Source: an uncultured virus (IMG/VR IMGVR_UViG_3300032047_003368)
Lineage: Duplodnaviria > Heunggongvirae > Uroviricota > Caudoviricetes
Virus record (IMG/VR): IMGVR_UViG_3300032047_003368
Reading direction: 5' to 3' (one strand)
DNA length: 64,000 nt
Part shown: positions 36,901-55,378 of the stretch, in pieces
Layout: every line of letters starts with the position of its first letter
How positions within the stretch are numbered: position 1 is the stretch's first letter
Program-made: the position numbers and the translations under genes
The notes under the pieces: generated by a model
The model's input: the letters and a program-made list of their open reading frames with translations, nothing else
Databases searched by the model: none
Told to the model about the DNA's origin: nothing

Positions 36901-37719
36901 TTTGTCTGATTTTGGAGTACATATTAATTCAATCTCAGTTTCGTTTTCAAAATCAAAGGTCTGAGTTTCTGTGATAGAAACTTTTTCAGTTTCAGTTCTC
37001 AACATTATATCACCAAAATCGTGATCTACAATTATCGTAACAGAAAACTTATCAGGTACAGATGTACCATCAAACGACTGAACAACTTGTTCAACTTGGT
37101 ATTCTACTTCTTGTTGTTTGCTCAAGTTAACATCCGAAGGTACATGTTGTAATTCCGAAACTTCTGTATTTTTAGTTTCCCCAAACTTCACCTCCATCGT
37201 GACGTCATCTTCTTGAAATAAAATGCTTCCATTGTGTTGGTACTTTTCATAATTACTTTTTACAAAAGAAACTTCATAACCATCGTCTGGTTGAATTTGC
37301 AATTCAATCAAAGTATTTTTATTTATAGGATACACACGGGTTCCTTGGTTAGTATGATAAAAATTTTGATGGTTACCCTCAAGATTTACAGCACCACCTT
37401 CGTTTGTACAAAGACGCAAAAATCCAATTCCTGTAGTTATGCTTTTTGGTTTTTGTCTGAATATAGGAGTTACCTCCAATTCACCATCTACTTTAATATG
37501 GTGGTACACAGAACCAGTTTTTATTGAAAAGTTAAGTGAGTTTGTTACCTCTACCAGTTCACATTCACTTAATGGTGTGCATACCAGTTCAACTTCAGTT
37601 TCGTTTTCAAAATAAAAAGTTTTGGTTTTTTCAACAACAACTTCACCTTCATCGGTTCTTAAGATTAAATTTCCAAAAGACAAACTTTTCTCGCAATAAA
37701 TTTTTAATTGATGCATCAT
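33982..37719 (-). CDS. large hypothetical (putative structural) protein with an internal duplication
   Basis: 1245-aa ORF; two copies of an approximately 175-aa beta-rich unit. Confidence 0.6.
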   Translation of the reverse strand: MMHQLKIYCEKSLSFGNLILRTDEGEVVVEKTKTFYFENETEVELVCTPLSECELVEVTNSLNFSIKTGSVYHHIKVDGELEVTPIFRQKPKSITTGIGFLRLCTNEGGAVNLEGNHQNFYHTNQGTRVYPINKNTLIELQIQPDDGYEVSFVKSNYEKYQHNGSILFQEDDVTMEVKFGETKNTEVSELQHVPSDVNLSKQQEVEYQVEQVVQSFDGTSVPDKFSVTIIVDHDFGDIMLRTETEKVSITETQTFDFENETEIELICTPKSDKYELVEVVNSTNFSMNNNSICHYIKVNSELEVTPIFRQKLKNISRELIYIRVSTNEGGVVNFNGHTQSFSHNSQGTRMYPINKNTLIELQIQPDEGYEVSFVKSNYEKYQHSGSILFQEDDAWLEVRFDKVAVIDEELLTNANSITFDTTKLATTTKLISDTHKDNLFVENVVKISQISSLEDTPTPSTKSDFTKSFEFDFKPRHSPDLDGEYICNLKKIHNIILYRGETYCFSALHDRASFELLDINYELYSDEQTESPVFTINSDFTFTPNNQTPPRLLLRTRHRNDRVITVSVMNNHFYGNASSASSLLDANLEITTNDDVGFGNTNNLGEIIMQSKPDIYSVVSESGVDQVTGIQNNLKYESPVGSTQLNALTTLVSTLYDEDNFDIVQINEMFSRSLEFKSEQDICVDNIVQNIIDGDASYFKLHKIQILTDAMLNISNKLGHYNKFKKILANRFLKNRLVLFNGDEFLDETLGRIINKNIREPVLSIVKKLFSYVLNTEVESAFYNWYKLFAFHYVFNLKFLTNIENVENSNLEWGNFATSISDAFSVINKVKIPTEVVLEECEDCKLSTKNFNTLLDNMKLTLSDSIFSKLTNDEFVFSENTFKFTYNKILKITYTTETSCYEVQRYPVNYYEPLKSVDAYDIGYKFDNLFSCVDTLPPPPPSDDHDEEEPDELSFNFSLVESGNSNVMLEHSINKNDLLVESLGKNEYRIYIDESVGRSTHERTSPGYIKVPKEFAIPMQQHYIRIGYKSGIQKKLVTKLVDNERTIRVVTTYWSSKLQKLVCIVATSINIGVNDVVEFSNSSFVNLNGTYSVSDILTDTAFVVDLNIHADFDDYDDITSDVKIKSGVRVYCDVGDFEVNDMVLFSGHKNYPTQIVNKSSDEFGDFIVVHTEFLTAPMHVIKSHAIENRDEVIDFMFTQKQIYYETTESDYIEDRIWLTYDPDPDPAGRLNQKISYIQIFYNKDF
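36542..37329. repeat. direct repeat, 125 bp (36542-36666 and 37205-37329), 2 mismatches
   Basis: Read by eye; the 663-nt offset is in frame. Confidence 0.85.
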
Positions 37720-39488
37720 TGGAAGTGCCTATTGAATAGTTGATGTTTAAATTCTATATATTCAATTATATATCGGTTCAACTCAGGTTCTTTAGGATGA
37801 TTTGTCCAACTGGCACCCACGCCAGTAGTTACCCAATATTTGTATTCATCAGTTGTCTGAAATCCAGGGGACACCATATAGTTATGAGTATTAAGCAAAA
37901 ACGATGGAACGTCAATCGCAATATACTTTCCAGACAAATTACTAAACGTTCCATCTATGATAAATGTATCATTATCTGTTTTATCGGTGATTGTATAAAA
38001 TTCACCACTTCCTATGACAGGCAGAACTACTCTAGTTCCAATATCAATTTTCCACGCCGGATGTGAACTTTCCACTTGAATTTGCGTTCCTCGTTCATAC
38101 AAAAGCACCCCAATTGTAGGGCCGTTCGTTGTAATTTGATTTTTATCTGCGTCAGTTAATAACCAAGATTGATTTATTTTTTGTAAATAAAAAGGCTGTC
38201 CGGAAACACTAACTTTTGTTGGACTTGAAAAATCGTCAGATAAACTATCAACCGAGTCAAAATTAACAAACCAGCCTATTGAATTAAATGCACCTGATAC
38301 TATATTTGCCATTGAACTTATTTTTTGAGAGCTTGTAATCTTATTTACTATTGTGTTTTCAGTTTCGTTGTAGTTAGCACCAAGAACTATATTTTCAGTC
38401 ATAGAATCACTTTCTTCATCTGGCAATGCTACCCAATCAACTTTACCAGTTTCTGTTCCAGGAGTCAGTTGTTCATTTATGTAAATTCTTACTACTCCAT
38501 TTCCTAAATTCAATATCGGTAGATTTTCAATTGAAAAACTTGAAGGACCCAATAACCAAGTTGGATTTTCCACAACACCTCCTGTTTTGTTTTCACGGAC
38601 TCCCAACGAAAACTCAGTAGGTGAAATAAAATCTGTAAATGTTGGTGTTGGTGTATATTCTGACTCTACATCAACTACTACGATATTATTTGCTTCCGCA
38701 TCTACTAATTGTGTATTTTTTTCATCAATTATATTATCAGAATCCACTTTTGAGATAAATGGAACAAATGGGTTCAGTTTGACCTTAATATAAATTTCTT
38801 CATGTGCTTGTATGGGTGAATTAAATTTAAGTTTGTTTGAACCGATTATTGTTGCATTTAATTCATCAAAGTTTTCGATTAATATTTGATCAGAAGTAGG
38901 AACACCACTTGTAATTATTTCAAATACTGTATCAGTTGATAGCAAAAAACTTGAAGTTGACGATGTAATTATTTTCTTAAAAAATTGATGCACTTCGTCA
39001 CCCGTGGATGGCGTATTACCTTCATTTGAAACTACAATGTCAAATGTGCCTTCTTCGTATTCTGGTTGTTTTTCAACCCGTACAGTCAAGTCTATAAACG
39101 ATTCTACAGTTAATGTAGGTGTAAGTGGTAGTGTAAAACAATTATCTGTTATCAATCCGGATGATGACATATCATCGTGTGTGTAAACAAAATTTGGAAT
39201 ATCAATATACTGAGAGGATTCCGACGTATTTTTTTTCATTATTATTTTGTAGGAATACCCACATCTTAATTCTGTAAAATCTTGATAATTTGGAATATTA
39301 TCAAAAAACGAAGGAACGGTTGCATCAAACCTAACATAATTTTTATGATCTGGTGTTGTTTGCCAGACTTTCCATATTTTATCTCGTATGTCAGATTCCT
39401 TTAGTGAAAAATTCTCACATTCATCGCACAGACCATACCAACCCATGTATATCACTATCTGCGTGGAATTTTGATGTAACCGTGTCAT
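37716..39488 (-). CDS. WYG-C-domain protein (putative virion surface protein)
   Basis: MGWYGLCDEC...DFTELRCGYSY N-terminal domain. Confidence 0.6.
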   Translation of the reverse strand: MTRLHQNSTQIVIYMGWYGLCDECENFSLKESDIRDKIWKVWQTTPDHKNYVRFDATVPSFFDNIPNYQDFTELRCGYSYKIIMKKNTSESSQYIDIPNFVYTHDDMSSSGLITDNCFTLPLTPTLTVESFIDLTVRVEKQPEYEEGTFDIVVSNEGNTPSTGDEVHQFFKKIITSSTSSFLLSTDTVFEIITSGVPTSDQILIENFDELNATIIGSNKLKFNSPIQAHEEIYIKVKLNPFVPFISKVDSDNIIDEKNTQLVDAEANNIVVVDVESEYTPTPTFTDFISPTEFSLGVRENKTGGVVENPTWLLGPSSFSIENLPILNLGNGVVRIYINEQLTPGTETGKVDWVALPDEESDSMTENIVLGANYNETENTIVNKITSSQKISSMANIVSGAFNSIGWFVNFDSVDSLSDDFSSPTKVSVSGQPFYLQKINQSWLLTDADKNQITTNGPTIGVLLYERGTQIQVESSHPAWKIDIGTRVVLPVIGSGEFYTITDKTDNDTFIIDGTFSNLSGKYIAIDVPSFLLNTHNYMVSPGFQTTDEYKYWVTTGVGASWTNHPKEPELNRYIIEYIEFKHQLFNRHFQ

Positions 39489-39502
39489 TTTAAAAGTTTT
39501 TG

Positions 39503-42112
39503 TTAACTTTCACATTCTATACTTACAAAAATTACAACTTTTCCGTGTGTATTTCCGTTACCTGCATCTCCTCTTAATTCATTATATAAATTTCGTGTTT
39601 CAGATAGTATACCGTTGTAATTAAATATGGGTGAAAGAGGTGTAGTTGTAGTTTTATCATATTTACCTTCTGTTCCTACAATCATGTATCCTGCAGTAGA
39701 TTCTCTTCGGTTTATATATCCCGATCCGCCTCCACCAGAACCATCATAATTTACGGTTGCATTGCCTCCCGCACCACCGTAGTATCCAGCACCACCACCA
39801 CCACCACTTGAATTATCACGTGTTCCACCAGTACCACCACCACCAAGTGATCCCGATGAACCAAATCCAGCTGGATGCTCTATTGCAGGTTGCCCACCAC
39901 TATTCGCAGTTCCTCCCCCTCCACCTTTAAGATCACCATATGCTTCTCTCAATTCACCATTCGAATACTTTTTAATTGAAAATCTGCTACCAGAAGTTCC
40001 CATGAAACCACCACCTGCACCTCCTCCACTATAGTCACTTGTGTGTGTACCTGCACCACCTCCACCACCGGCAATTGCTATTACATTGCTTATGTGAGTA
40101 TTACTTCGGTATATACCACTCATTCCACCACCTGAACCTGCACACGCGAGATGACCACTTCCTCCGTATCCCGCAGTTTTATTACCAGGAGAATAACCAG
40201 GAATATTAAAAGAATCAAATGAAGTACCAATTGATGTTTGTCCTACACCGATTGCAAGTTTTTCTCCAGGAATAACTGGTATCACCACTTCAGTAAATCC
40301 TCCGGACCCTCCTGAATTAATATGACATCCGTCTGAACCACCTGCTCCCCATAAAAGTGCCTTTATGTGCGTGATACCACCTGGCACAGTATATATTTGA
40401 TCCTCACCAGTTGCATTAAATTCAGTTACATTATTTTCATCAAAAACTAATTCCGTGCAATCTTTTTCTTGATAGCATTCATTTGCAGAAACATACAATG
40501 TTTTAATATGGTCTCTGTAAGTTGAGTTTGGAGTTGACCAAGTTGCAAATTGTGGACACGCAGACTTGCTTGTCCATGCATATACATCAATTGGAAATTG
40601 GGATGGGCTGTTTTCCGAAAATGCCCACATATCCGTTACATAATTTATATCATCAACTTTTTTGATAACACGTAGATATCTGTTTTTAACGCAGTTTAGT
40701 TCGTAATCAAGATGATCTACAGAAAAGGATGTGCCGTGATCCATTGAACCCCCGAACCCACTCATTCGGAGTCTGTAATATCTGTATAAATTTTCAGATT
40801 CTGAATTAGTATCAGAAAATACCCAATCCATTGTATACTCAGGGTGTTGCCAAGTTTCCAACTTGATCCAGTTTACATCATCATCACTTGCTTCTAAGAT
40901 AATTTTACCCCATGTTAATGTTGCAGAATTATTTTCTTTGGTTGTGTACATGGAAACCGATTTCATATAAAACCTACTAAGATGCGATTGTGTGTGTGCA
41001 TCAAGATGAAATACAACAAAATATCTATCAACCCAAGGCATTCTCTTTGTTGACCAAACACCACCAGAACCACTCGTTTTTAACAAATCAAGATTTCCAT
41101 TGGAATTTGTAAGTGCGTTTGGTGCGGTTAGTGTAGGTTTGATTGAACACTCTGATAAACCCCCGACTGATGTTTCCCAATAAGGTTCTTTTCTGTAATC
41201 AAGGCCTGCATAAAAATAACTATTGTTATAGTCCACACCAACTTCACGAAGACCTGACACGCAAAATACATCTGAACAACCTGATATATTTAACTCACTA
41301 TCTGAATTGATGCATAAATTATTATTGCCACCATCTATACTCCACCCATCTGGGAAAATTGCAGATGATACACATACCTCATCACCATCTAGTATATTAG
41401 AATGTAAGTCGGATAGTTCATCACTTACAATTTGTGTGTTTGTTGCGAGTGCAAGTCTCCACCTTTGCTCAGATGTAAAAATTAATATTACATGAGTTCC
41501 TAAATCAAAGGTGGGATGTTGTTCGTTTAATTTTACATAAACTGGTAGATTTTTTGAAGACGATGTATCTATTGAAAAATCTTCTGATCTTAAAGTTGAT
41601 TTTGTGTATATTCCAAATATGTCAGATACATCTGTGTATGTGCTTCTATTTCTGACAGCAGGACCGGTTATACACACCGTGGATTGGCAGTTGAATTCCG
41701 TGAAATTGTCTGTGTTTGTGTGAGTAACGGATGGAGTTACCTCTGGTATTTCTTCAAAATACTCGCAATTAATATCCTTGGAAATTCTACCTAAATCATC
41801 AGACGATAATTCTGTGTGAGTAAATCCATCTACCGGAAACGATTCTGTTCCTGGTTTTAATATTATTATATATGATTTTCCACACGACAATTCGGTGAAG
41901 TCTTGAAAGTTTGGAATTGTATCAAAGTTTTTATCAACCGTTGCATCAAATCTGACATACGACTGATTGTCATCCGTGAGTTGCCATACTTTGTACAGTT
42001 TACTTCTTACATTATCAGTTTTTAGGTCAAAATTTGTACAACTTTTTTCACAAGTTCCGTACCATCCAAAGTAAATAAGTATTTTTTTCTCATTTTGCTT
42101 TAACACACTCAT
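39503..42112 (-). CDS. WYG-C-domain protein with a discoidin-like segment and a C-terminal glycine-rich domain
   Basis: [10 protein letters not shown]...LSCGKSY; LEASDD..NW...YRYYRL; YTVPGG...WGAGG...GGSGG. Confidence 0.65.
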
Positions 42113-44244
42113 GTTATCTCCGTAAGAAATGTAATACCAGATGTACCCGCTACAAGTTCACCCTCAAAACACACACCATCGGGTGATTGATAAACTATTT
42201 TATTTCTATCTGTGGAAGGAGGACCCCCTGCATAAAATATACCTATCGTTTTCTGCATAGAAAATTGCTCTTCAGATGGAAGGGCATTTATCGTAGGTCC
42301 TTGTAACTGAAGAGTCCATGTGTGACTTTCCCCACGGTTCCACCCAGGAAGTTCTGTAGTTCCATTTGGATAATCATAGCAAAGTTTACCACTAGGTTCT
42401 AATCCAGCAACTCGCACACCCCAGTCGTTTGTATCGTCTCCTTGATTTTTTCCATGTGTCATCCAGGTCTTTGGATGAACGTGACCAAGTCCACTGCAAC
42501 AATCTGTCGGTTCTGGTGTCGGTGTTGGAGTTTTCGCAGGAGTAGGAGTCGGTGTAGGAGTCTTCTCGGGAGTAGGAGTAGGTGTAGGAGTTTTCGCAGG
42601 AGTAGGAGTCGGAGTAGGAGTTTTCGCAGGAGTAGGAGTCGGAGTAAGAGTTTTATCGGGAGTCGGAGTCGGAGTAGGAGTTTTCTCGGGAGTCGGAGTC
42701 GGAGTAGGAGTTTTCTCGGAAGTAGGAGTCGGAGTAGGAGTTTTCTCGGGAGTCGGAGTCGGAGTAGGAGTTTTCTCGGAAGTAGGAGTCGGAGTAGGAG
42801 TTTTCTCGGGAGTCGGAGTCGGAGTCGGAGTTTTCTCGGGAGTCGGAGTCGGAGTCGGAGTTTTCTCGGGAGTCGGAGTAGGAGTAGGAGTTTTCTCGGG
42901 AGTCGGAGTAGGAGTAGGAGTTTTCTCGGGAACGGGAGTCGGTGTAGGTTGCATTGCTTCACAACTATCATTTGTATAAATGATGATTCTTCCATGAGCA
43001 TTGCCCTGCCCAGCCAGGCCACGATTGGGGGTTTCAAATGGAAGTATCGCATCACCCCCCTGGTTAGTAGTTGCAAATCCACGTGAGCCCATCTCTAATA
43101 CACTATGTTTTTCATCTATACCAATTACAAAATTAGGATTTAAATAGCCAGAGCCACCACCACCCGGTGAATCTTCGTTAGCAATAGCTGCACCTGCACC
43201 ACCCCCAAACCACCCTGCACCACCACCGCCACCAGACGAAGAAGCATTTGACTTACCACTACCTCCGTTAAATTGTGTTCCAGATTGGCCACCGTCTCCA
43301 CCTGTATTGGGATTTCCGAATCCACCTGAAAGGTGAGTTCCAGGACGGCCTCCGTCAGGTATAGAAGCATCCGAATAACGAAATCCACCTGTTCCGAATT
43401 TTCCACCACCTGCTCCTCCACCAGCACCAGGTTCGGTCCAATCTCCACCGGCTCCTCCACCACCACCCGCAATAGCAATTACAGTTTCCACAGAAATTGT
43501 ATCTCTAAATAGTCCACTCATTCCACCACCTGCTCCACCACACTTGGTACTTCCGTCACCACTTTGACCTCCAGAACCACCTGGACTATATCCAGGTATA
43601 CCCCGTGTCTCATCTGTGGTTCCCGTAGAAGTTTGACCGACTCCAACAATAATTTTTTCACCAGGTGTAACACCGAAAATGACCTTCGCAAAACCACCAG
43701 AACCACCGGAGTTTCTATAACATCCGTCACTCCCTCCTGCTCCCCATATCTCCGCAGTTAATTGTGTTATTCCGTCAGGCACTATTAAAAATTGATCGTC
43801 TCCTGTTGTATCGTATATCATTTTAAAACAAGCTTGTGATATCTTTGTTGGAGTTTCGGTTGGGGTTGGAGTTTTGATCGGAGTTGGAGTCGGAACTACA
43901 TCACAACACTTATCTGTTATCCGTTTGGGTGTCGTGTGTAAGATAGTATCATCTGCATAAGAACTAACTGATAGATTGGGTATCTCAACTGACTTCACTC
44001 CATCTTTTAGCTTAATAATATATGCGTTTCCACATATTAATTTATTAAAATCATTTATGCCGGGCACATTTGCCATATCAGAGGACCAACACTTCCACCC
44101 ACCATCCACACCAAACACCTGGAAAACATAATCAATGGTGGCATCGTAATCATCCAAACTCAACTCAGAGCAATCTGATTCGCAATTACCATACCACACT
44201 ATGTTGTAGTTTTTTCCCAATATATCTGGTTCGTTTGTTTCCAT
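42109..44244 (-). CDS. WYG-C-domain protein with a glycine-rich domain, a long Pro/Thr linker and a C-terminal CC domain
   Basis: [10 protein letters not shown]...[12 protein letters not shown]...WGAGG; 14 copies of [10 protein letters not shown]. Confidence 0.65.
42505..42948 (-). repeat. 30-nt coding tandem repeat, about 14 copies ([10 protein letters not shown])
   Basis: ggagtcggagt(c/a)ggagtaggagttttc(t/g)c units on the + strand. Confidence 0.95.
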
Positions 44245-44249: not shown

Positions 44250-45167
44250 TTAAATTTTTTCTAAGTTACATATGCCGTTGTTAATTCGGCCATATAAACA
44301 AATTCCGTTGTATTCTTCATATCCATGTAATTTTGCAAAGTTAGAGTCTTCAATACTTAAATATATAAGTGAATCAGAATTCACACCACCATAAAATATA
44401 ATTGTTCCTAAGTTTTTATTTTCAGGTGAAATTACAACAACAGGGGTTAATAAATTATTACAATAATCAAGAGTGGGACTTGGTAAACAAACTATACCAG
44501 AATAGATAAATTTATTAATTGTCAACCCAACTTCTGATTGTATATTTGTGTCTGTATCAGGACCCACTGGAAACTCAAGTGAATCGTCTCCACAACACAC
44601 GATTGGGGTGGTTGGTGTTGGTGTAATCTTTGGTGTGGGTGTGGGTGTAATTTCACAATCGCATATTTTTCTCCAGTGAATAGATTTACCAGGTTCGTCA
44701 TTTGCGTCAGTTCCTTCCCATTCAAATGCTTCCCACACAGAATTATTCCAATTGACGATTTCAAACGAATCATATTTCATCGTTTCCCAAGTTGGGTAGT
44801 CTTTACACCGACAAACTTCATTTTCAGGAGTGGGTGTATAAATACACGGATCATCATCAACGGTTGGTGTAGGAGTCGGAGTGGGAGTCGGAGTGGGAGT
44901 CGGTGTTGGTGTTGGTGTTGGTATAGGTGGACACTCGCATACGTGCAACCAATGAACCGATTGACCCGGTATATCGTCAGACTCACATCCCTCGGTACTA
45001 GCTGCTATATAAACATTATCTTGATGTACTACAACATCATCTGTATTATATAAAGGTTTAGTTGAATCCCACTCTGTGTGTAGTTCACAATCACATACTG
45101 CAAGACCCCTACCTTTACTTGCAAGGGAACGCAATAGATTATTAAACAATCTCTTGGCCGGACTCAT
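44250..45167 (-). CDS. protein with two CBM5/12-like modules, PT linkers and a C-terminal CC domain
   Basis: Two copies of W....Y...D.V......(Y/W).A........PG.S.HW. Confidence 0.55.
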
Positions 45168-45216: not shown

Positions 45217-48200
45217 TTAGCATATACCCAACTCGGTGCAATCGGATGAAAAATCATCTCCGTAGTGAACCAGTCCGTTTTCCACAGTTGAGGCCGTACC
45301 AAATGATATTGATATACCGGTGAACTGCAATCCAACCGGGCAGTACAGAGAACTACCCTCCGCAAACGCACATAACTTTCCATCTGTGTATGATTCGTTA
45401 AAATTTACAGATTGTTCACCGTTGTCATCTGCATATACATACAACTCCCACCTTGATTTAGTTTCCGACCAACGAATTTCAGAAAAAACATATCCAGAAC
45501 CAAATTCAACAGTTCCATCTAATAACAAGAAACCGTCTGTGAACTTTCTAGAAGTTCTATACACATATTTTTTATCGTGATAAGCATATCCTATACTATT
45601 TGCAGCTGATGTTGTGGAGTAATAAATCAATCCATAATTACCATTCATAAAATCACAATTGAATCCGTCTATAGTTATACGAGGGCAATCGGCATATCTC
45701 TGAAGTTCTGTTGTGTTTATGTTTAGTGTGAAGTTTTTCTCAACAAATCCAACTCCCGTGGCACTTTCTGCGTATACACTTATTTTTGCAGAGCTACCTA
45801 TATTAGAAATATCACCAGTTACCACTAAATTGACATTTTGTAAATTATTAAATGGATCAGAACCCACAAGTTCAAATAAATTGTTGTGAATACCAAAAGA
45901 ATTATTATTAAAATTATATTTTATATTTTTATTCACATGAGTCCCCACAAATACACCTACAATCGTACCCACATCTGATGTTGATTCAAGTGTGGGTGAA
46001 TTCTCATAAATTAAGTTAAAATCACTCGGTGGGCATGATAAAACATCAGCAACTACCAAATCTTTACTTAACTTAATTATACAATTCTCTTCTTTGCACA
46101 AGAAATACTGTCTACCAGATGAAATAAACTCAGTTGTTTGATGGGTGGACTCGGTTGAAATCTGCTTTCCTATGACGAGATTACCAGTCCAGTAAAATTT
46201 TATTATATTTAGTTCTTCAGTTGCACACGCAACATCTGGCCAATCATATCCTATAATCTGCTCAGTTGTTTCGTGTTTAATCTTTGAAATGTAGTTAAAA
46301 TTGGCCGAATTATCATGCTCAGGGAAAATTTTAGTTTTACAACTGATTAATGTAGCAGTTGTTACAAATGTCTTTGTTTCTGTCTTATTATATGCAAATG
46401 TAACTTTAAATTTTAAAACACTGCCCTCATCAAATGTATGTGTGCTAATATGTCGTGTATCACTCACAACCACATCATTCACCGACCATTCATAGTAAAT
46501 TGCATCCACTATACCTTCATATTTATAGTTTCCGTATAAAGTGTTCCCAACACACAAATCACCGACAATCTCTGTAAAACCTTCGTATAATTTTGGGGGT
46601 TGTGTAGCTGTTTGCTTCACCACTTGTTTGATTTGCCTATCTACAATGTAACTAATCTCAGATGCACAGCACGGTTCTGATTCTCTACCCTCTAGTCTTA
46701 AAGCATGAATCAACAAACCCTGTTTATTATCAAAAAATTCAATCGGTGATTCCAACTCTGTATCATAATCGTAGTTACCCACAAACAAACGAACCGCAAC
46801 AACAGACTTCTCAACTATATCCAACCCGTCTAAAGGAGGATTTTCGGCACTATAGTAATCATTTTTTACATTCGTAACAATTTGCTGATTCTGTGTAAAA
46901 TGATGTACTGTCTCGATGTGTATCCACTTTTGTTTTTCAAGTGAGTATACTTGTAAATCAAAATGACCGTTTGTATTCATTACGGTCATTATTTTTAAAT
47001 TAACTAAGTCAACCGGATTTGTTAGAGGAAATTCAATTTTATGTAAAATATCCCCACCGGTTTCTGTTTTTTCGAAATATTGACCAACACCCACACCAAC
47101 AGGATTGGTACTAAGTTTATTTATATTAAAATAACCACGGAACGATTGTTGGTATACATTGGACTTGGTCGGTGGAAGTCCAGACCCCCTTTGCAAGACT
47201 TTGATAAAGTCGTTTTTTGACTCCACTATATCTACCTGATTTGTTAAATTCTTTTCAAATACATTCACATACTCATCAGGAGTGTTTAAATCAAACCACC
47301 CCTGTATTGTTGCGTCTTTCAAGTCGCATCTCAGTTCACTACAACTCACCTCCGGACACGTCTTAGTTAACTTCACAATATTAGAATTGAATGGGATTAC
47401 GGGTATCCATGTAGAGTTTAACGGTGGGCACGATTTACTTTCATCGAAATCTATATTATAATATAAAATTTCATGGCCATTTACTAAAGCCCATATATTT
47501 CTTTTTATAGAAGTATTTCTTGGGTCAGTTGCAGATAAAAACAAAATTTCCAGAAGATTGTTAGTCGATATCCACTTGGTCTTGTGTGAACTTTCATCCT
47601 GTGAATAATAATATCTATCACTAATAGGTGAATTAACCACTCCTGCTGTTTCGTTTGTGCCCGTCACACATATATAGGATTCACGTGTAAACTCACGGCC
47701 ACACCATTCTGCTTCGTCTTCGGAATTAGAATTAGTAAAGCTGCACTCATATATACCCACCACTTGACGGTTTTTTATTTTTATGAACTTACCGTTTGCG
47801 TACACATACTCACCAATAGATGATATAGTAAAATATTCCGACAGTTCGGAGTTTTTTTCTGTAGTTAATGTTGTTCCTACTTCAAGTTCATTTTCAAAAT
47901 CGTGATATAGTATCTGTGAATCTGTTACTTTTAAAATATTTATATTTTTTTCGCACGCCGAAATGACCTCATCTTCACTCCAACCAGTGAATTTTTTTTC
48001 TTTGTAGTCTATATGCTTAAACAGAGCAACAATTGGAACTGGACATTTATCCGAGTTACACACTCTTGATTGTGTCAAACTTCCACAATCATATTCAGTA
48101 TATTCTGAGTTCAGTGGAAATCTATTCGAATATTGTATACCCCCTCCACATGATTTGGAACATTCACCCCAAGGACCCCACTCCGATGCTTCGCATATTT

Positions 48201-48222
48201 CAATTTCGTTTATATCTGTCAT
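45217..48222 (-). CDS. large modular Cys-rich protein with one N-terminal thrombospondin-1 repeat
   Basis: SEWGPWGECSKSCGGGIQYSNR...QSRVCNSDKCP. Confidence 0.7.
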   Translation of the reverse strand: MTDINEIEICEASEWGPWGECSKSCGGGIQYSNRFPLNSEYTEYDCGSLTQSRVCNSDKCPVPIVALFKHIDYKEKKFTGWSEDEVISACEKNINILKVTDSQILYHDFENELEVGTTLTTEKNSELSEYFTISSIGEYVYANGKFIKIKNRQVVGIYECSFTNSNSEDEAEWCGREFTRESYICVTGTNETAGVVNSPISDRYYYSQDESSHKTKWISTNNLLEILFLSATDPRNTSIKRNIWALVNGHEILYYNIDFDESKSCPPLNSTWIPVIPFNSNIVKLTKTCPEVSCSELRCDLKDATIQGWFDLNTPDEYVNVFEKNLTNQVDIVESKNDFIKVLQRGSGLPPTKSNVYQQSFRGYFNINKLSTNPVGVGVGQYFEKTETGGDILHKIEFPLTNPVDLVNLKIMTVMNTNGHFDLQVYSLEKQKWIHIETVHHFTQNQQIVTNVKNDYYSAENPPLDGLDIVEKSVVAVRLFVGNYDYDTELESPIEFFDNKQGLLIHALRLEGRESEPCCASEISYIVDRQIKQVVKQTATQPPKLYEGFTEIVGDLCVGNTLYGNYKYEGIVDAIYYEWSVNDVVVSDTRHISTHTFDEGSVLKFKVTFAYNKTETKTFVTTATLISCKTKIFPEHDNSANFNYISKIKHETTEQIIGYDWPDVACATEELNIIKFYWTGNLVIGKQISTESTHQTTEFISSGRQYFLCKEENCIIKLSKDLVVADVLSCPPSDFNLIYENSPTLESTSDVGTIVGVFVGTHVNKNIKYNFNNNSFGIHNNLFELVGSDPFNNLQNVNLVVTGDISNIGSSAKISVYAESATGVGFVEKNFTLNINTTELQRYADCPRITIDGFNCDFMNGNYGLIYYSTTSAANSIGYAYHDKKYVYRTSRKFTDGFLLLDGTVEFGSGYVFSEIRWSETKSRWELYVYADDNGEQSVNFNESYTDGKLCAFAEGSSLYCPVGLQFTGISISFGTASTVENGLVHYGDDFSSDCTELGIC

Positions 48223-48231: not shown

Positions 48232-51200
48232 TTACTCTACTACATTATATTCCACACTCGAACCCCAACCACTGGCACGTGTGGCCACAAGACCACTTCC
48301 CCAACTGAGATCTTTTACTTTTTCAATTTTTCCAAATATGTTTGCGAATCCAAGATTTGTATAACTTTCTGGATATCTATTCAAATAATCAGGATTCCGA
48401 TTGAGACCGAATTTATAGTTTCTTGCCATTAATGTTTCACCCGCAGTCGGCATTGGTGAATTTACTCCAGGAATGTTATTTAAATCAAGTTGATAACTCC
48501 AACCACACATTGAATAGATTGCCCAATTCGTAGCAGGCATATACGAAAATCCAAAACTTGCTTCTTTTTTCCACATCTTAGTAAGTATCCACCCATATTG
48601 ATCTCGGATATCACGATATGAGCCATCAAAGTTTTGGATTTGCCAATCTCTGTATCCTGTAATCCCCCCGTTCCAAATTTGATTATATGCACCTACTCGT
48701 CCTGCACTATACCCCCACCTCAATGTATAATAATATTTGTAGATGCTTCCACCAAAAACATCGGTTCTAAAACTATATTTTCTATTACCACGACACGGAG
48801 TATCACCACCAGATGTGTCAGCATACGACTGACAACTATACGCATACCAACCATTTGCAGGACCTTTGATTATTTTGTTAGCAGAATTATTAGGATTTAA
48901 ATCAGGTACATTAGATCCACGACCGTTACCTGCCCACAACACAGGATATAATACTAAGTTTTCTAGTTCGGTTCCGGTAGTTCCACCAAATCCTGTGATT
49001 TTATATGACGCAACTGGTCCACCTGTGCAATCTTTACCCGTTTCATATCTAGTTTTACCTATATGTTGCGATCCATTGCATTTACCTCCACATTCCGCAG
49101 GTGTTGTAATTTGAAATGTTGATTTTATATACTGAATGTTATCTTTTGGATTCATGTTGCCCTCGGATGTACATGGACCATCAACCCATTCAGCTGTGCA
49201 ATTTTTAGGACAACACCCACATACACTTTCACCTGGATTTCTATATTCAGTTTTTCCGTTGTAATGATCACAAGTTCCTCCACATGATTGTGGTACGGTG
49301 GTTACCCATTTACGAGTTTGTTGACCCGTTTCACACTTACTACATCTTCCAACCACATTGTTGAAGCCCCACTCAGTCCAATAACCTTCACAATCTTGCT
49401 TACAACATTGAGTATTACAATTTTTAGATTCAGTTTTTCCACGAAGTACACAAGTACCACCGTTAAGTTCGTCTACATCAACTATATATTCTCTCGTTTG
49501 AATCCCAGAACCACATGATTTGCTACAGGAACTCCACGATGACCATCTGCCTTGACAGTTTGTCGGGCAGGCCTGGCTATTACAGGTCCTGGATTCAGTC
49601 TTACCCTTATCAGGACATACTCCACCCCATCGTTCTACATTTCTCACTATATAGTTTCTAGTTTGAACACCACCTCCACAAGTTTTACTACACGAACTCC
49701 ATGAATTCCAATACCCTTCACAATCCACTGGACAACTTTGAGTATTACACAGAGTAGATTGAACCCTGCCACGTTCATGGCAACTTCCACCATCGGTTTC
49801 TGCTTCATCCACTATGAATGTTCGTGTTTTAATTCCAGAACCACACTCTTTACTACACACTCCATATTCAGACCAATGACCTACACAATTTTTAGGACAA
49901 TTCTGTTCATTGCAATTTTGAGTTAAAACTTTTCCACGATTTTCACAAGTACCACCGTTAAGTTCATCAGTCTGTACCACAAATGTGCGAGTCTGTGTGC
50001 CCCCATCACACGAAGACGAACAATCTGTCCAACTATCAAAGTATCCCGAGCAGTTACGTGGACATCCATGTGTATTGCAATCCCGTGTTTCTATTTTATT
50101 TTTATTTGGACAGACCCCACCATCCCTTTCAATTTCAGATACAATAAATGATCTAGTTTGCTTTCCACCGTCACATGATGCAGTACATGATGACCACTCT
50201 GACCAAGCCCCCACACAGTCTACCGGACAACCTTGTACATTACAATCATCTTGCCGTGTTTTTCCTAGATCTGGACATAATCCTGTGCCAAGAGCTGGAT
50301 CTGTAACTTGATATGCCATTGTTTTAGTTCCACCCCCACACGGTTTACTGCAATCTGTTACTGCAATCCAAGACCCCACACAATCTTTTGGACACACATG
50401 AGTGTTACAAGGTCGTGAAATAGATAGATCAGACGGACACGCAACTCCACCAAATTGTGCAGGTTGTAATATGGTACGTATAGCCGTTTCTGTTCCACCA
50501 CCACACTCCTTAGAGCAGGTGCCACTCCAATTCCAACCAGAAACTTCGCAGTCAATCGGACATCGTTCTTCACCACAAGTTTGTATAATAGTAGTACCAG
50601 GACACTCTAGCCCACCATTTATTGGTTCGGATATAACTGTAGTTGTTCGTGTTTGAATTCCTGGACCACTTCCGTCTGGATCACATGGTTGGGAACATAT
50701 ACCCCAAGATGTTTGGGTATAAACGCAATCTACAGGTGTCGGTATTTCTTCATTTAGTTCAGGTGGTGACTCAAAAACACAAGTTTGGCCAAGAAGATTT
50801 GGTTTTGTACGTGAATACTGTGTATGCATTGGTGAAGATACAGCAATGATTACTTTATTGTTAAATAACGTAAAATCAAGAGCTGTACCAAAGTTATCAT
50901 CGTGGGTTTTTCCTAAAAGTGTAGTGCCAAACTGAACCCAACCATTATCTTCGAGTTGATATACCAAAACCGCACCTGGTCTAAGAACATCCAGTGTATC
51001 CGTAAGTGCATCAATTGTATAATTTATATCAGAGTATGCAAGTGTAGTTCCCTCGTCACTTAATTTCAAAGATGTAACATCTCCGATTAATGTAGTTCCA
51101 AGTTGTGACCAGTTACTGATTCCGTTGTATTGGTATATCAGGATATATCCAGATGCAGAATTCTCATCAGGATTTTCATCGGTTATATTGGGAATTCCTA

Positions 51201-53928
51201 TAGCGATTCTATCTCCGTGTTTTGCAATAGAGATTGAAGAAGGTGAGTTTATGGAATTGTAGGTTCCTGCTACGGTTGTATTACTCGGTAACTCAATTCT
51301 AAGACCTTTTTTAATGAATTCATCTTTTTCGTGATTATAACGATAAACCTCACCTATTTTGTCACCTGCAGCTGCAATTGTTACATCAGTTTTTGTTGAA
51401 AGTGAAGATATACAGGTAGCAGTTCCGAACCCAGAATTATATTCTCCGTATATTGTTTGTCCTAATTGGTTCCAGTTCCCATTTTCAAAATTATAAACTT
51501 CTACTGCTCCAGTTGGTATATGTGAATCACTTGATGCAACCGAGGTTTCTTTTATATCATCAGAGAAATTTTCATTGGTTTGAATTGTAGTTTCGTCTGA
51601 TTGACATTCCACAAATTCAAGATTTCTCATATAATGAAAGTTGGGATACTCTTCAATTGTATATTTTGATGGTAGGTCGAATATATTGAGACCAGGCCAC
51701 GTATCATCAGAATCCGTGTCAAGTGTCCACACCGGGTGTTTATAAAAAGAACTATCAGTTATAGTTTCACCCGAACTTTTAATTTTATGTGCTTGTTGTT
51801 GTGTAACTGAAGTGTGCAACGGACTTACTGAAACCCACTTACCCCAAGACACACCAGGGGTTGTGCGAGTATTTCCTATCGGGAACGCAACGAGTGTATC
51901 TTGTGCTTTTGGACCGAAATTATTGGTAGTAATATGAGTCCACCATAAACTATACTCATAAACTCTACAATTATTAAAATAATTCTTGGTAGTTTCATCT
52001 AAATATGTAATTGGTTGACAAAGTAAAACTAAATAACTAGGACCCTCAGAATTCCTAATACCCTCGGGTAGTTCGTCAAATTCGTCTTGATACATAGGTT
52101 CTTTTGATCTGTAGAAAAGATTTTCACCACCAAGAAGATCTGCTTGTGTGAAATTATGCCACTGACCCATGAATAAATCATCAATGGCAGTATTATCAAG
52201 AATCAACTCTGTGTTATTCCATTTAGAATATTCAGTAAGTCCATCAGGAATGTTGACATAACCACCTCCATCTGGAGTTATGTATCGATACCCGTCAACA
52301 AATCCATCTTCTATACGTATGCAATCAGGAATTGGATCCTGTGTGCAGTCAAACCCAGACGGCATTTCTTCATTGAAAGTTGTATTCTCCGTGGCCGCAG
52401 ACGAACCAACCACCAATACATCTCCAGTTGGATTCAATTGACATGAAATTCCAAAACGAGCCCCTTGTGTATTTCCATATAAAACATTTCCGTGGGAATC
52501 CCACGCATTTGTTGTAACGTTCCACTTGAATATCCTAACTTCTCCTATATTTTTGTCGGTAGATTCTTCTTGAAACGGACTTCTTGATGCATTGTATGCA
52601 CCAATTGCAAGAATACTTCCGTCTTCGTTTAATGATAATGCATGACCAGAGAAGTTTCCTACCCCACCACCATCAATATCATCTCCCATTTGTGACCATT
52701 CCAACGACTCATATCTGTAAACTCTTACATGACCCGCAAACTGACCTGTATCTGAATTTAATTTCGCACCAACTGCCAGTATAGTACCGTCATTATTTAT
52801 TGCAACCGAATCACCCGCTTTCATATTAGGTCTCTCACCATCCACACACCCTCGTTTAATCCAAAACTCGTCAGTTTCTTCACAAGTTCCTCTTACCAAT
52901 GTGTGATAATAGTTTGCGTTTGATTCCCAGGATACATCATAAGGTCCCGCTTCTCCTGTGGTATCCGCGTAACGACCATACTTTCCACCAAGTTGATTTG
53001 ATATCATCCACCTCACACCGGAAACCCCCACCGGGTTTTCATAATATGCATACATATTAGAGTCAGTCTTCCATACCGGTCGGTTGTTGTGTTCATTTGG
53101 TTGCAGACGATAAGTTCCATTATTTTTCTCTACACTACTATATCTAATACAAAAGTTCTCAATTGGTGGGTCAAGAATTAAAGTTGGAGTGGGAGTTCTT
53201 TTTATATCATCACAATCAACAACCTCAATAATAGTTCGGTCATTTATCAAATAAATTTTGTTATCAGAAAAAATATACTGATTATCAATTGCAAAATTGT
53301 CGGTTATATAATTTCCTTCGTTAAATTGCTCATTTGCGATTTTTTCTGCCAAATATAATTTAGTGCCCACATCAGGAGTTGTTGTATCAATAACCATATC
53401 ATACACCAACCCACCTTGGTTATCAAAACAAGCGACTTGTGGATCATCCCATCCTTCATAACTTTCACCACCTGTGTCAAAGTTTTTAAAAATAAATGGT
53501 ATTTTTTTGCAATCACACTCTTGTTCACCCTCACAGGTTGGACATGGATTTACAAGTCTATGCGTTGTATTTTCATTTATATTTGCAGAAAATAAACCAT
53601 CTATACTCACCTCCGTGCCTTCATCTATCTCAACTATATAAGCACGACCACATTCAAATTTGTCGAAACTTTGGCCGTTTTTTAAAAACTCAGAACCTAA
53701 AGTATTTTTGACTAAGTCAGGTAGAGTTTCATATTCCTTTTCGTTTTTAAGATGAACATCACGCGACCAACCACTATAAACATAACCTCCTGATTTTACG
53801 TCAATAACACTAACCACCTTGTTAAATTCACCGGTAATACTATTACCGGAGTAAAATGAATAGTCTTGACACGAATCACACGAATCTCCGAACCAAACAA
53901 AGTTAATATTTTTATTCAAAGTTCCCAT
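48232..53928 (-). CDS. giant WYG-C-domain protein with an FG-GAP-like propeller and about 10 thrombospondin-1 repeats
   Basis: VWFGDSCDSC...FECGRAY; G.S(V/L)A(I/L)N.DG.ILA(V/I)GA repeats; DCxGxWxxWxxCSxxCGxGxQTR repeats. Start at MGTLNKN. Confidence 0.75.
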   Translation of the reverse strand: MGTLNKNINFVWFGDSCDSCQDYSFYSGNSITGEFNKVVSVIDVKSGGYVYSGWSRDVHLKNEKEYETLPDLVKNTLGSEFLKNGQSFDKFECGRAYIVEIDEGTEVSIDGLFSANINENTTHRLVNPCPTCEGEQECDCKKIPFIFKNFDTGGESYEGWDDPQVACFDNQGGLVYDMVIDTTTPDVGTKLYLAEKIANEQFNEGNYITDNFAIDNQYIFSDNKIYLINDRTIIEVVDCDDIKRTPTPTLILDPPIENFCIRYSSVEKNNGTYRLQPNEHNNRPVWKTDSNMYAYYENPVGVSGVRWMISNQLGGKYGRYADTTGEAGPYDVSWESNANYYHTLVRGTCEETDEFWIKRGCVDGERPNMKAGDSVAINNDGTILAVGAKLNSDTGQFAGHVRVYRYESLEWSQMGDDIDGGGVGNFSGHALSLNEDGSILAIGAYNASRSPFQEESTDKNIGEVRIFKWNVTTNAWDSHGNVLYGNTQGARFGISCQLNPTGDVLVVGSSAATENTTFNEEMPSGFDCTQDPIPDCIRIEDGFVDGYRYITPDGGGYVNIPDGLTEYSKWNNTELILDNTAIDDLFMGQWHNFTQADLLGGENLFYRSKEPMYQDEFDELPEGIRNSEGPSYLVLLCQPITYLDETTKNYFNNCRVYEYSLWWTHITTNNFGPKAQDTLVAFPIGNTRTTPGVSWGKWVSVSPLHTSVTQQQAHKIKSSGETITDSSFYKHPVWTLDTDSDDTWPGLNIFDLPSKYTIEEYPNFHYMRNLEFVECQSDETTIQTNENFSDDIKETSVASSDSHIPTGAVEVYNFENGNWNQLGQTIYGEYNSGFGTATCISSLSTKTDVTIAAAGDKIGEVYRYNHEKDEFIKKGLRIELPSNTTVAGTYNSINSPSSISIAKHGDRIAIGIPNITDENPDENSASGYILIYQYNGISNWSQLGTTLIGDVTSLKLSDEGTTLAYSDINYTIDALTDTLDVLRPGAVLVYQLEDNGWVQFGTTLLGKTHDDNFGTALDFTLFNNKVIIAVSSPMHTQYSRTKPNLLGQTCVFESPPELNEEIPTPVDCVYTQTSWGICSQPCDPDGSGPGIQTRTTTVISEPINGGLECPGTTIIQTCGEERCPIDCEVSGWNWSGTCSKECGGGTETAIRTILQPAQFGGVACPSDLSISRPCNTHVCPKDCVGSWIAVTDCSKPCGGGTKTMAYQVTDPALGTGLCPDLGKTRQDDCNVQGCPVDCVGAWSEWSSCTASCDGGKQTRSFIVSEIERDGGVCPNKNKIETRDCNTHGCPRNCSGYFDSWTDCSSSCDGGTQTRTFVVQTDELNGGTCENRGKVLTQNCNEQNCPKNCVGHWSEYGVCSKECGSGIKTRTFIVDEAETDGGSCHERGRVQSTLCNTQSCPVDCEGYWNSWSSCSKTCGGGVQTRNYIVRNVERWGGVCPDKGKTESRTCNSQACPTNCQGRWSSWSSCSKSCGSGIQTREYIVDVDELNGGTCVLRGKTESKNCNTQCCKQDCEGYWTEWGFNNVVGRCSKCETGQQTRKWVTTVPQSCGGTCDHYNGKTEYRNPGESVCGCCPKNCTAEWVDGPCTSEGNMNPKDNIQYIKSTFQITTPAECGGKCNGSQHIGKTRYETGKDCTGGPVASYKITGFGGTTGTELENLVLYPVLWAGNGRGSNVPDLNPNNSANKIIKGPANGWYAYSCQSYADTSGGDTPCRGNRKYSFRTDVFGGSIYKYYYTLRWGYSAGRVGAYNQIWNGGITGYRDWQIQNFDGSYRDIRDQYGWILTKMWKKEASFGFSYMPATNWAIYSMCGWSYQLDLNNIPGVNSPMPTAGETLMARNYKFGLNRNPDYLNRYPESYTNLGFANIFGKIEKVKDLSWGSGLVATRASGWGSSVEYNVVE
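49030..50740 (-). repeat. tandem spondin-type TSP1 repeat array (8 clear, 2 degenerate)
   Basis: Approximately 55-aa, six-Cys periodicity in the translation; boundaries approximate. Confidence 0.85.
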
Positions 53929-53929
53929 T

Positions 53930-54355
53930 TTATTCGCATACACACGGAGGAAATGTTGGACAATCAAAACACTCAATAACTCTACCCAGACCCGAACCTG
54001 ACTTGCTTGATAATGTAAATCCAGGAATCGTAATCTCAGTTCCCTCTTGTATTTCTACGACATACGGTGTACCACATACTAACTTAGTAATACTCTGTCC
54101 ACTTTTTATATAACTTAACTTATCTACTACATCATGTACACTTGATGGCAGTGCTTCCCATGATGAAATTTGCTTTTGGTGCTGAGATTGAGTCCATGTT
54201 TTATATACAAACCCCCGATCAGCCACTTGCATCACCATAATTAAATTCTCGTATTGAGGTTTAATAATAGACTCTGTTGTATATAAGTCCAAATCACTAC
54301 ACGACTCACATCCACCGTACCAACCTATATTAATATTATTTTTTAACAAACCCAT
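53930..54355 (-). CDS. stand-alone WYG-C-domain protein
   Basis: IGWYGGCESC...KLVCGTPY; closely similar to the N-terminus of the next gene. Confidence 0.65.
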   Translation of the reverse strand: MGLLKNNINIGWYGGCESCSDLDLYTTESIIKPQYENLIMVMQVADRGFVYKTWTQSQHQKQISSWEALPSSVHDVVDKLSYIKSGQSITKLVCGTPYVVEIQEGTEITIPGFTLSSKSGSGLGRVIECFDCPTFPPCVCE

Positions 54356-54379
54356 GTGTCGGTATATCCTATAAAAAGT

Positions 54380-55378
54380 TTATCCACCACAACTACAATT
54401 TCCAAGTTCACCAAGTGGTACTAAATTTACTTCAGATAATTGTGGACAGACACATCCTTCATAGCAATCATCGTTGGCCAAAGTGACTTGAATTTTTCCC
54501 TGATACTGACGACCAAATGCCATCTCCCCATGCTTGAAAGTAAAGTCAGATTGATTAAAAAACCCGTCATTTTCAAAATTTTGCATAGATTGTAAATCCA
54601 TAGGTGGCATTGGGTCTGATGCAGTTGCTCCATTGTGGCACATTTTTGCAATATTTAATTCAGGTTTTATTTCTGAAAACGGTCCTTTTGATTTTTGCAA
54701 CTCAACATAACCATATTCCTTTCCTGTTTGAAGTTTAGATGGATCAAAATTTTCACCAAGTTCTTCTTCGGATGTAGATTCCGTATGTGTATATGAAAAC
54801 TCACTACAGCAAGGAAGAGCAGGTTTATCAGGAGCAACGACTTCAAAAAATGAAGTTTCTTCATCTACATAATTACCGTTATCATCTGTGGCAAATACCG
54901 TAATTGTGTGCTTTCCAACAGGTGCGGTGAATGTAGTCTGAGTTAGTCCGATCACATTTTCTTTCTCTCCTCCATTTATACTATATGCCCACAAACTTGT
55001 ATTTTCCAGTGAAACATCAAGCACAATATTATTTACATCTTGCTGTAACACATCAATATTTTCAATAGAAATTTCAATATCAACTTCACAACATTTTGAT
55101 AAATTTTTTCCAGATGAACTGAGTGTATGAAAATTAGGTATGTCAAATGCTTCTACGGGACTTGTTTCATTTATCACCATATAAAATTTACCACATTTTA
55201 GTTTTGCAAATGGAAATGGCAATGTGTTAGGCATGGTATTATATGATCCACCTTCAGATGTTGTTTCCACGAACTTGACCTTTCCCAGTAAAGTCTGCCC
55301 TAGTTCACGTACCTGTACATCTGTACAGTCACAACCTCCGTACCACCCCATAGTATATCTGTTTGTAATTTGTGCCAT
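54380..55378 (-). CDS. WYG-C-domain protein with an Ig-like segment and a C-terminal CC domain
   Basis: MGWYGGCDC...KLKCGKFY; YSING...GKHTITVFATD; start at MAQITNR. Confidence 0.6.
   Translation of the reverse strand: MAQITNRYTMGWYGGCDCTDVQVRELGQTLLGKVKFVETTSEGGSYNTMPNTLPFPFAKLKCGKFYMVINETSPVEAFDIPNFHTLSSSGKNLSKCCEVDIEISIENIDVLQQDVNNIVLDVSLENTSLWAYSINGGEKENVIGLTQTTFTAPVGKHTITVFATDDNGNYVDEETSFFEVVAPDKPALPCCSEFSYTHTESTSEEELGENFDPSKLQTGKEYGYVELQKSKGPFSEIKPELNIAKMCHNGATASDPMPPMDLQSMQNFENDGFFNQSDFTFKHGEMAFGRQYQGKIQVTLANDDCYEGCVCPQLSEVNLVPLGELGNCSCGG

What the first reader, a model, noticed from the sequence alone, without database searches (positions are those of the whole stretch)
37716..55378. 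Six clustered proteins share an unrecognised N-terminal 'WYG-C' domain carrying interchangeable cargo modules
Seen: ORFs starting at 55378, 54355, 53928, 44244, 42112 and 39488 all begin with hydrophobic-(G/V)W(Y/F)G-x1-2-C-x1-3-C ... L/F-x-CG-x2-Y ... (I/V)P/DxF, about 110-140 aa. One ORF (53930-54355) is the domain alone. The others append different cargo: Ig-like, propeller + TSP1, Gly-rich + PT linker, or discoidin-like. I do not recognise the domain. Inference: it is a common docking module that plugs diverse adhesins into a virion scaffold, a plug-and-play display system.
Basis: partly seen in the sequence, partly recalled or inferred. Interest (0 to 1): 0.85.

Follow-up and report, generated by a model that had tools for sequence, protein, structure and literature searches.

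The report
Plug-and-socket chains of phage adhesins
Marine bacterial viruses carry rows of genes whose proteins begin with one uncatalogued domain and often end with a second, and the gene order suggests that each protein's tail plugs into the head of the next, building chains of sticky modules, probably on the virus particle.

Summary
Observation confirmed: six ORFs share an N-terminal domain of about 100-140 aa (leave-one-out HMM E 4e-8 to 3e-25; best non-member 0.32). The family is large (265 clusters at 50% identity), nearly always N-terminal (176 of 183), folds confidently as a beta-rich domain and matches nothing in Pfam, PHROGs, NCBIfam or the PDB. In related contigs a gene ending in C is followed by a gene starting with N in 57 of 57 distinct pairs (control 17 of 41), arrays often open with a C-only 'root' gene and close with a C-less gene, and C co-diverges with the next gene's N (partial r 0.69), not its own (0.09). 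In 7 T4-like contigs the root lies at the end of the baseplate block. Best reading: N is a plug, C its socket, chaining adhesin-like proteins in gene order, as PKS docking domains do.

The parts
54380..55378 (-). 332-aa protein: N domain (about 55079-55378), Ig-like middle, probable divergent C domain (54383-54814)
   Evidence: C-like end only by profile-profile alignment, probability 41%, E 0.00028, 71 columns; not found by HMM
53930..54355 (-). 141-aa N-domain-only protein (cap or adaptor); long-insert subtype shared with 53928
   Evidence: 14 of 136 complete related ORFs are domain-only
48232..53928 (-). 1898-aa protein: N domain, FG-GAP-type propeller, eight TSP1 repeats
45217..48222 (-). 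1001-aa cargo protein without N domain; TSP1 at its start; residues 43-932 match the C-terminal half of N-bearing P0013/P0016
44250..45167 (-). 305-aa candidate chain root: conserved N-terminal peptide, PT linkers, terminal C domain (44253-44600), no N domain
   Evidence: C domain E 2.2e-5 among 590 segments; 11 related N-terminal peptides; homologues lie directly upstream of N genes
42109..44244 (-). 711-aa candidate chain link: N domain (43909-44244), Gly-rich ALK_LTK_GRD domain, long PT linker, terminal C domain (42112-42504)
   Evidence: C domain E 2e-10, 2.3e-8 with a model trained without window proteins
39503..42112 (-). 869-aa protein: N domain (41765-42112), Gly-rich ALK_LTK_GRD domain at the end, no C domain
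   Evidence: AlphaFold2 model of residues 1-120, pLDDT 89.1, pTM 0.81
37716..39488 (-). 590-aa protein: N domain (39135-39488; 51% identical to that of 42112), unassigned cargo, no C domain
33982..37719 (-). 1245-aa gene closing the array; neither N nor C domain; conserved after the 39488 orthologue in L152
32842..33960 (-). 372-aa protein with dockerin-like repeats; dockerin-like genes close or punctuate related arrays
   Evidence: Pfam Dockerin_1 E 8.1e-11 for the whole protein, no single stretch passing

Best explanation
The WYG-C (N) domain is the plug of a two-part protein connector. Its socket is a second domain of about 105 aa (C domain, CC...G-x-x-C...G-x-C-Y-x-G) at the extreme C-terminus of the protein encoded just upstream. 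A 'root' protein with C but no N is fixed to the particle by its own N-terminus (a baseplate-linked protein in T4-like phages; the 45167 family or dockerin-like proteins in this lineage); 'link' proteins N-cargo-C extend the chain in gene order; C-less or domain-only proteins end or cap it; extra internal C copies could give branches. In the window this reads 45167 -> 44244 -> 42112 and probably 55378 -> 54355; 55378, 53928 and 39488 need sockets from elsewhere. The product would be long, flexible (PT-linked), cysteine-rich appendages displaying adhesin-type modules. Shown: both families, their positions, the gene-order rule, the co-divergence, baseplate linkage in other phages. Inferred: direct C-N binding, chain order, virion location, adhesion.
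For: Gene ending in C followed by gene starting with N: 65 of 66 distinct pairs (60% clusters; the exception starts with a visibly divergent N) against 24 of 53 for N-bearing genes without terminal C and 18 of 104 for other genes; complete genes only, 35% clusters: 57 of 57 against 17 of 41 and 8 of 71, Fisher p 1.7e-10 for N-bearing genes alone. Tandem duplication of N...C genes predicts arrays ending in C; 0 of 24 array-ending N genes do. In 52 triplets C tracks the next gene's N (r 0.79) more than its own (0.53); partial r 0.69 against 0.09; bootstrap difference 0.15-0.39; genes of 320 aa or less 0.90 against 0.71. That is the signature reported for PKS docking pairs (PMC1994986, abstract). 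C is terminal in 137 of 143 ORFs, N within the first 30 aa in 176 of 183. Junctions fall in all three frames (43/20/32 of 95) and no in-frame C-N fusion occurs in 906 ORFs, so the link is not read-through. In 7 of 7 T4-like contigs the last gene of the baseplate block ends in C and the next starts with N (wedge, sheath, tube and terminase by PHROGs). AlphaFold2 on a natural N-linker-C protein gives both domains pLDDT mostly above 90 and pTM 0.61; by my arithmetic two unattached domains would give about 0.45, a weak hint of packing. No signal-peptide-like or membrane stretch in 149 of 150 homologues.
Against: C and the next N are also neighbours in DNA, so recombination in the PT linkers could produce the co-divergence without binding. 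Loci were fetched with an N-domain pattern and come from related phages, so pairs are not independent. Residue-level covariation between the paired domains was inconclusive (top z 5.2, shuffled maxima 4.0-4.2, phylogeny not removed). The window has six N domains but only two sure C domains; 17 of 41 C-less N genes are still followed by an N gene. In the window's own lineage the arrays lie among ClpB, SufS, HNH and glycosyltransferase genes, and 66 flanking proteins gave no capsid or tail gene. The root gene in T4-like contigs has no PHROG match itself; it is baseplate-linked by position only. Cysteine-rich, probably disulfide-bonded domains must fold without a secretion signal.
Confidence: 0.6

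Rival explanations
1. One reading: every N domain docks on one common hub (baseplate, capsid, 33982-37719 or the dockerin-like 32842-33960), as secondary tailspikes dock on a primary one; C is just another cargo (binding) domain.
For: N is N-terminal on diverse cargo; N domains outnumber C in the window; dockerin-like and 37719-like genes are conserved at array ends; C also occurs in up to five copies per protein, as adhesion repeats do.
Against: Does not explain why a terminal C is always followed by an N gene (57 of 57) or why C tracks the next gene's N rather than its own. Multi-copy C fits a branching hub equally well.
Confidence: 0.15
2. The connector is real but the assembly is not on the virion: it is a glycosylated matrix or surface layer made in the infected cell or released at lysis.
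For: In this lineage the arrays sit beside about 25 glycosyl- and sulfotransferase-type genes and housekeeping genes, not structural genes; TSP1, FG-GAP, reeler, LamG and dockerin-like domains are typical of extracellular proteins (established knowledge).
Against: No signal peptides or membrane anchors; in 7 T4-like contigs the root follows the baseplate genes, and in G001 C domains end a protein of the head-gene region.
Confidence: 0.12
3. N is a self-associating (for example trimerising) or glycan-binding head, and N-N contacts, not C-N, hold the proteins together.
For: Tandem N-N starts in 11 of 150 homologues; domain-only genes; best fold matches, all weak (Z up to 4.7), are jelly-roll-like beta domains.
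Against: A monomer model is confident without partners; gives no reason for the C-to-N rule. May still apply to N genes with no upstream C.
Confidence: 0.08
4. C-stop-N is a DNA cassette copied as a unit by recombination between PT-coding repeats, with no functional contact between the two domains.
For: The halves are usually within 20 bases of each other; PT-linker length varies between strains (219-base skip at 42504-42724 in run X12).
Against: The rule holds across T4-like phages and the window's lineage at 20-30% domain identity, with spacers in all frames; unselected adjacency should decay.
Confidence: 0.05

Closest known systems
Branched receptor-binding-protein systems: CBA120 TSP1-4, G7C, Klebsiella KP32 and phiKp24 (PMC8825819 passages; PMC13352976 abstract; PMC9700779 passages)
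   Same: A primary protein fixed at the baseplate offers docking sites; secondary proteins attach through an N-terminal element; higher tiers are possible; cargo determines what is bound.
   Different: There the docking sites are T4 gp10-like XD domains near the N-terminus of trimeric tailspikes with beta-helical enzyme bodies, 2-14 proteins in all. Here the proposed socket is C-terminal, both domains are uncatalogued and cysteine-containing, the cargo is TSP1, propeller, Ig, LamG, Gly-rich or peptidase modules on PT linkers, and the pairing follows gene order through arrays of 13 or more genes.
Docking domains of modular polyketide synthases and NRPS (PMC1994986 abstract; PMC8251938 search listing)
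   Same: C-terminal and N-terminal partners straddle adjacent genes, set the order of a multiprotein chain, and are inherited as one module while the rest of the proteins is shuffled.
   Different: PKS docking domains are short and mostly helical (recalled) and join enzyme assembly lines; these are 100-130-aa beta-rich domains on non-enzymatic or adhesin-like phage proteins. Analogy only, no homology claimed.
Cohesin-dockerin (cellulosome-type) systems
   Same: Modular plug and socket; multi-socket proteins could act as scaffolds; a dockerin-like protein is encoded beside the array.
   Different: Neither N nor C matches cohesin or dockerin in Pfam; no signal peptides; the dockerin-like repeats are on separate root or terminal proteins and their partner is unknown.

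Membership tests
Branched RBP system (T4 gp10-like docking) | Docking domains of the gp10 XD2/XD3 type | tested here: inconclusive
   No PDB sequence match for N or C profiles (one hit at E 0.0005 to chain 6d0t_A, labelled BB1, not examined further); gp10 and TSP4 not among the listed fold matches, best Z 4.2-4.7. C domain not folded alone.
Branched RBP system (T4 gp10-like docking) | Secondary proteins attach by an N-terminal element | tested here: inconclusive
   Position fits (176 of 183 N-terminal); attachment itself not shown.
Branched RBP system (T4 gp10-like docking) | Beta-helical depolymerase cargo | tested here: not met
   No such Pfam family in the six window proteins, in 58 of 150 homologues scanned or in 28 array proteins.
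Branched RBP system (T4 gp10-like docking) | Primary protein encoded with and anchored to the baseplate | tested here: inconclusive
   Gene linkage met in 7 T4-like contigs; not met in the window lineage; anchoring not testable.
Branched RBP system (T4 gp10-like docking) | Homotrimeric subunits | not testable with these tools
Cohesin-dockerin system | Dockerin domain present | tested here: met
   32842-33960 Dockerin_1 E 8.1e-11, 42.4 bits over cutoff 22.9, no single stretch passing; 2 of 28 related array proteins also hit.
Cohesin-dockerin system | N or C domain is a cohesin | tested here: inconclusive
   No cohesin Pfam hit in 97 N or 97 C members; no cohesin among listed fold matches.
Cohesin-dockerin system | Secreted components with signal peptides | tested here: not met
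   Hydrophobic N-terminal stretch in 1 of 150 homologues (simple hydropathy test).
PKS/NRPS docking-domain pairs (works-like comparison) | C-terminal partner followed by N-terminal partner on the next gene | tested here: met
   57 of 57 distinct complete pairs; 65 of 66.
PKS/NRPS docking-domain pairs (works-like comparison) | Straddling pair inherited as one module | tested here: met
   Partial r 0.69 against 0.09 in 52 triplets; DNA adjacency is a confounder.
PKS/NRPS docking-domain pairs (works-like comparison) | Direct, selective binding of the pair | not testable with these tools
PKS/NRPS docking-domain pairs (membership) | Attached to PKS or NRPS catalytic modules | tested here: not met
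   No such domains.

The most novel reading that the evidence does not exclude
Marine tailed phages of more than one lineage use an undescribed pair of domains as a gene-order-encoded docking code: C-terminal sockets and N-terminal plugs string up to a dozen or more different proteins into ordered, branched, probably glycosylated appendages, whose length and content change by adding or deleting genes in the array. This would be PKS-style colinear assembly applied to virion architecture, and a source of many orthogonal protein connectors.
Probability: 0.45. Interest if true: 0.9.

Novelty: new variant of a known kind. Interest (0 to 1): 0.8.

Why it matters
Known multi-fibre phages branch a few trimeric tailspikes from gp10-like hubs. 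If the C-N pair is a connector, phages also build appendages by chaining many separate gene products in gene order, which would explain how arrays at one syntenic site can hold six N genes in one genome and at least thirteen in a relative, and would predict particle architecture from gene order. Both domains are small, fold well in prediction and come as 95 natural candidate pairs, so the claim is directly testable without culturing the phage, and partner-specific pairs would be useful protein connectors.

Tried and rejected
Complex prediction of the C-N pair was not available, so binding is untested by structure. Family libraries: no consistent Pfam, NCBIfam or PHROGs match for N (at most 2 of 97 members per family apart from PT-linker hits) or Pfam match for C (1 of 97 per family). 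PDB sequence searches: nothing credible. Fold searches: Foldseek no E<=0.001 in PDB or BFVD, VIA best Z 4.2 and 4.7; this shows neither a new fold nor a different one, and C was barely tested. ESM Atlas: no usable hit; only unnamed clusters with a low recognition value. INPHARED tblastn with two queries: no match. LR756501.1, nearest phage record by the CCA enzyme, has no N domain and only a stop-containing weak C hit. The 10 GTDB pattern hits were all chance, none scoring with the HMM; the pattern is strict, so this is not proof of absence from cells. Peptide-seeded locus searches failed or could not be seeded. N and C are not homologous to each other (probability 0.7%). Read-through fusion rejected; P0033 and P0185, which look like mis-called or partial versions of 44244/42112, were not used as evidence. 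Two word-index searches with C alignments returned only 6 and 14 proteins (low sensitivity). RNA runs X19 and X20 hold small shares; X19 laid only as short pieces, so expression is not shown. One contig in run X12 keeps the 39488 N domain but its other 663 bases do not lay at 85%: divergence or swap, undecided. A recalled resemblance of N to an uncatalogued beta domain of secreted bacterial and archaeal proteins, and a recalled similarity of the lineage's ClpB/ClpC to Verrucomicrobia, were not tested. Literature searches that found no description of this system: (listings only) and term searches inside two huge-phage preprints; subscription papers and all supplements were not seen, and huge-phage protein catalogues in supplements may hold these families unnamed.
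Full report
Observation. The cargo labels hold for 53928 (FG-GAP-type propeller, TSP1) and 44244 (Gly-rich domain, PT linker); 42112 shares the Gly-rich domain; the discoidin label was not supported, and the Ig label only through an orthologue.

Setting. No genome is held for the window. It carries a tmRNA, ClpB, SufS, a CCA enzyme, an HNH nuclease and a DnaQ-type exonuclease, and its left half is a run of glycosyl- and sulfotransferase-type genes. No capsid or tail gene was found. Among phage records its CCA enzyme is closest (56%) to a 735-kb uncultured phage (bacteria were not searched). Leaving out three possible source runs, 15 studies hold 30% or more of the stretch's words: 14 marine, seawater, estuary or ballast-water metagenomes and one viral metagenome. 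I read it as a large marine phage; that is inference.

The N family. The six-sequence profile finds 265 clusters at 50% identity. Of the best 150, 135 have the motif in the first 30 residues, 8 internally, 7 were not placed; 11 of the 135 have two copies; 45 of 84 longer ones have a PT linker right after; 1 of 150 has a signal-like or membrane-like stretch. Pfam names cargo in 25 of the 58 scanned: FG-GAP, LamG, RCC1, TSP1, Calx-beta, Big, fn3, DUF6174, YHYH, peptidases. AlphaFold2 with 76 sequences gives a beta-rich domain, pLDDT 89.1, pTM 0.81, with no significant match in PDB or BFVD and no family match in Pfam, PHROGs or NCBIfam.

A second domain. Many homologues end in a recurring module of about 105 aa with a CC start and a G-x-C-Y-x-G end: 38 of 150, terminal in 33, up to five copies. 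A model trained without window proteins finds it at the end of 44244 (E 2.3e-8) and 45167 (E 0.0014; 2.2e-5 after adding metagenome members); 55378 probably ends in a divergent copy (41%). It has no Pfam match and is unrelated to N. In the window each C-ending gene is directly followed by an N gene: 45167-44244, 44244-42112 and, if the weak call is right, 55378-54355.

The rule in other genomes. Of 150 loci examined 134 hold the N domain; the 16 without include all 10 GTDB hits; many loci overlap, so pairs were dereplicated. A gene ending in C is followed by an N gene in 96 of 97 pairs at 90% clustering and 65 of 66 at 60%, the exception being a divergent N; N-bearing genes without terminal C are followed by N in 24 of 53, other genes in 18 of 104. 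With complete genes only and 35% clusters: 57 of 57, 17 of 41 and 8 of 71. Simple tandem duplication would leave arrays ending in C; none of 24 array-ending N genes has it, while 13 genes have C without N and lead into N genes. These roots include the 45167 family, with a conserved N-terminal peptide, proteins starting with dockerin-like loops (by eye), and, in 7 T4-like contigs, a 1,480-1,610-aa gene closing the block that follows the baseplate wedge genes (one of the seven is a fragment). A 206-kb tape-measure phage (G001, CheckV 100%) has two N genes behind a C-bearing gene and two C copies on a protein of its head-gene region. In 52 triplets C is more alike where the next gene's N is alike (r 0.79) than where its own N is (0.53); partial r 0.69 against 0.09. 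Thattai et al. report this straddling inheritance for PKS docking pairs (PMC1994986, abstract). DNA adjacency confounds it, and residue covariation was inconclusive. A natural N-linker-C protein folds with pTM 0.61, somewhat above my estimate of 0.45 for free domains; this is a hint only.

Plasticity. At the site flanked by the same two genes as the window (82% and 50% identical), a relative has 13 N genes and 18 C copies before its contig ends, against 6 and 2-3 here; further arrays lie upstream of ClpB in relatives. Cargo is shuffled over time: 48222 matches the second half of N-bearing P0013 and P0016, and 42112 and 39488 have 51% identical N domains on unrelated cargo. But at 55% N identity or more, 102 of 135 pairs keep their cargo and 12 do not; at 45-55%, 74 of 134 are unrelated (an earlier, cruder count gave 1 of 38; C-domain masking and truncated database proteins can inflate these). 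So cargo is exchanged, but not freely.

Mechanism. Most likely (0.6): N plugs into the upstream product's C, chaining root, link and terminal proteins in gene order into flexible adhesin-bearing appendages, with internal C copies as branch points and domain-only proteins as caps or adaptors. Against it: surplus N domains in the window, no structural genes nearby in this lineage, no direct binding evidence. Rivals: common hub (0.15), non-virion matrix (0.12), N self-association or glycan binding (0.08), functionless cassette (0.05). Glycosylation of the PT linkers by the neighbouring enzymes is speculation.

Comparison. It works like branched tailspike networks, where a baseplate-anchored primary protein carries gp10-like XD docking domains and secondary proteins attach by their N-termini (PMC8825819 and PMC9700779, passages; PMC13352976, abstract), and its gene logic is that of PKS docking domains. 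It is not filed in either: depolymerase cargo and PKS modules were tested and not found, XD or cohesin identity is inconclusive. The moraphage paper (PMC12619734, first of eight parts read) gave no link. Five literature searches found no description, within an open-access library and without supplements. Two earlier scan notes on other modular cysteine-rich appendage systems concern different domains and were not checked.

Verdict. A real, uncatalogued two-domain system; new variant of a known kind on present evidence, with a 0.45 chance of the stronger reading, a colinear docking code for virion appendages. Interest 0.8.

Noticed in passing
window 30455-30863 (-): tmRNA gene called by ARAGORN between the alanine dehydrogenase and sulfotransferase-like genes.
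   Followed up: no
window 1548-29215 (-): Dense run of roughly 25 glycosyltransferase, sulfotransferase, epimerase and GDSL-type genes, seven of them Sulfotransfer_2; could modify the PT-rich linkers or host glycans.
   Followed up: no
window 45078-45167 (-): Conserved, basic N-terminal peptide of the 45167 family (11 related versions), also on 1,160-1,290-aa LamG proteins; candidate separate anchor.
   Followed up: partly
window 32842-33960 (-); L214, L221, L200, L202: Dockerin-like repeats recur at array ends and at the start of some C-ending root proteins; no cohesin partner seen.
   Followed up: partly
window 33982-37719 (-): N-terminal part is internally duplicated (about 200-aa unit, visible); its C-terminal 290 aa match a separate 395-aa gene in L221.
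   Followed up: no
window 63186-64000 and beyond: ClpB gene is cut by the window end; in relatives (L197, L199, L178) a second N-domain array lies directly upstream of ClpB, so one may lie just outside the window.
   Followed up: partly
L061 1113-15805 (G001): Proteins with very long Thr/Gln/Glu repeat stalks (up to about 2,000 aa) between N and C domains in a 206-kb tape-measure phage.
   Followed up: partly
L128 5803-8757 (G001): Head-region protein with a TQ stalk and two C domains, far from the N genes: a possible second root.
   Followed up: partly
L184 9236-11374: N domain fused to a serine hydrolase (FSH1) at a third locus beside a DNA ligase; peptidase cargo (M6, M8, M10) occurs elsewhere, so some cargo is enzymatic.
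   Followed up: no
window 57530-58156 (+): The only sizeable plus-strand gene in the region; coiled-coil-like N-terminus, no family above weak PHROG hits.
   Followed up: no
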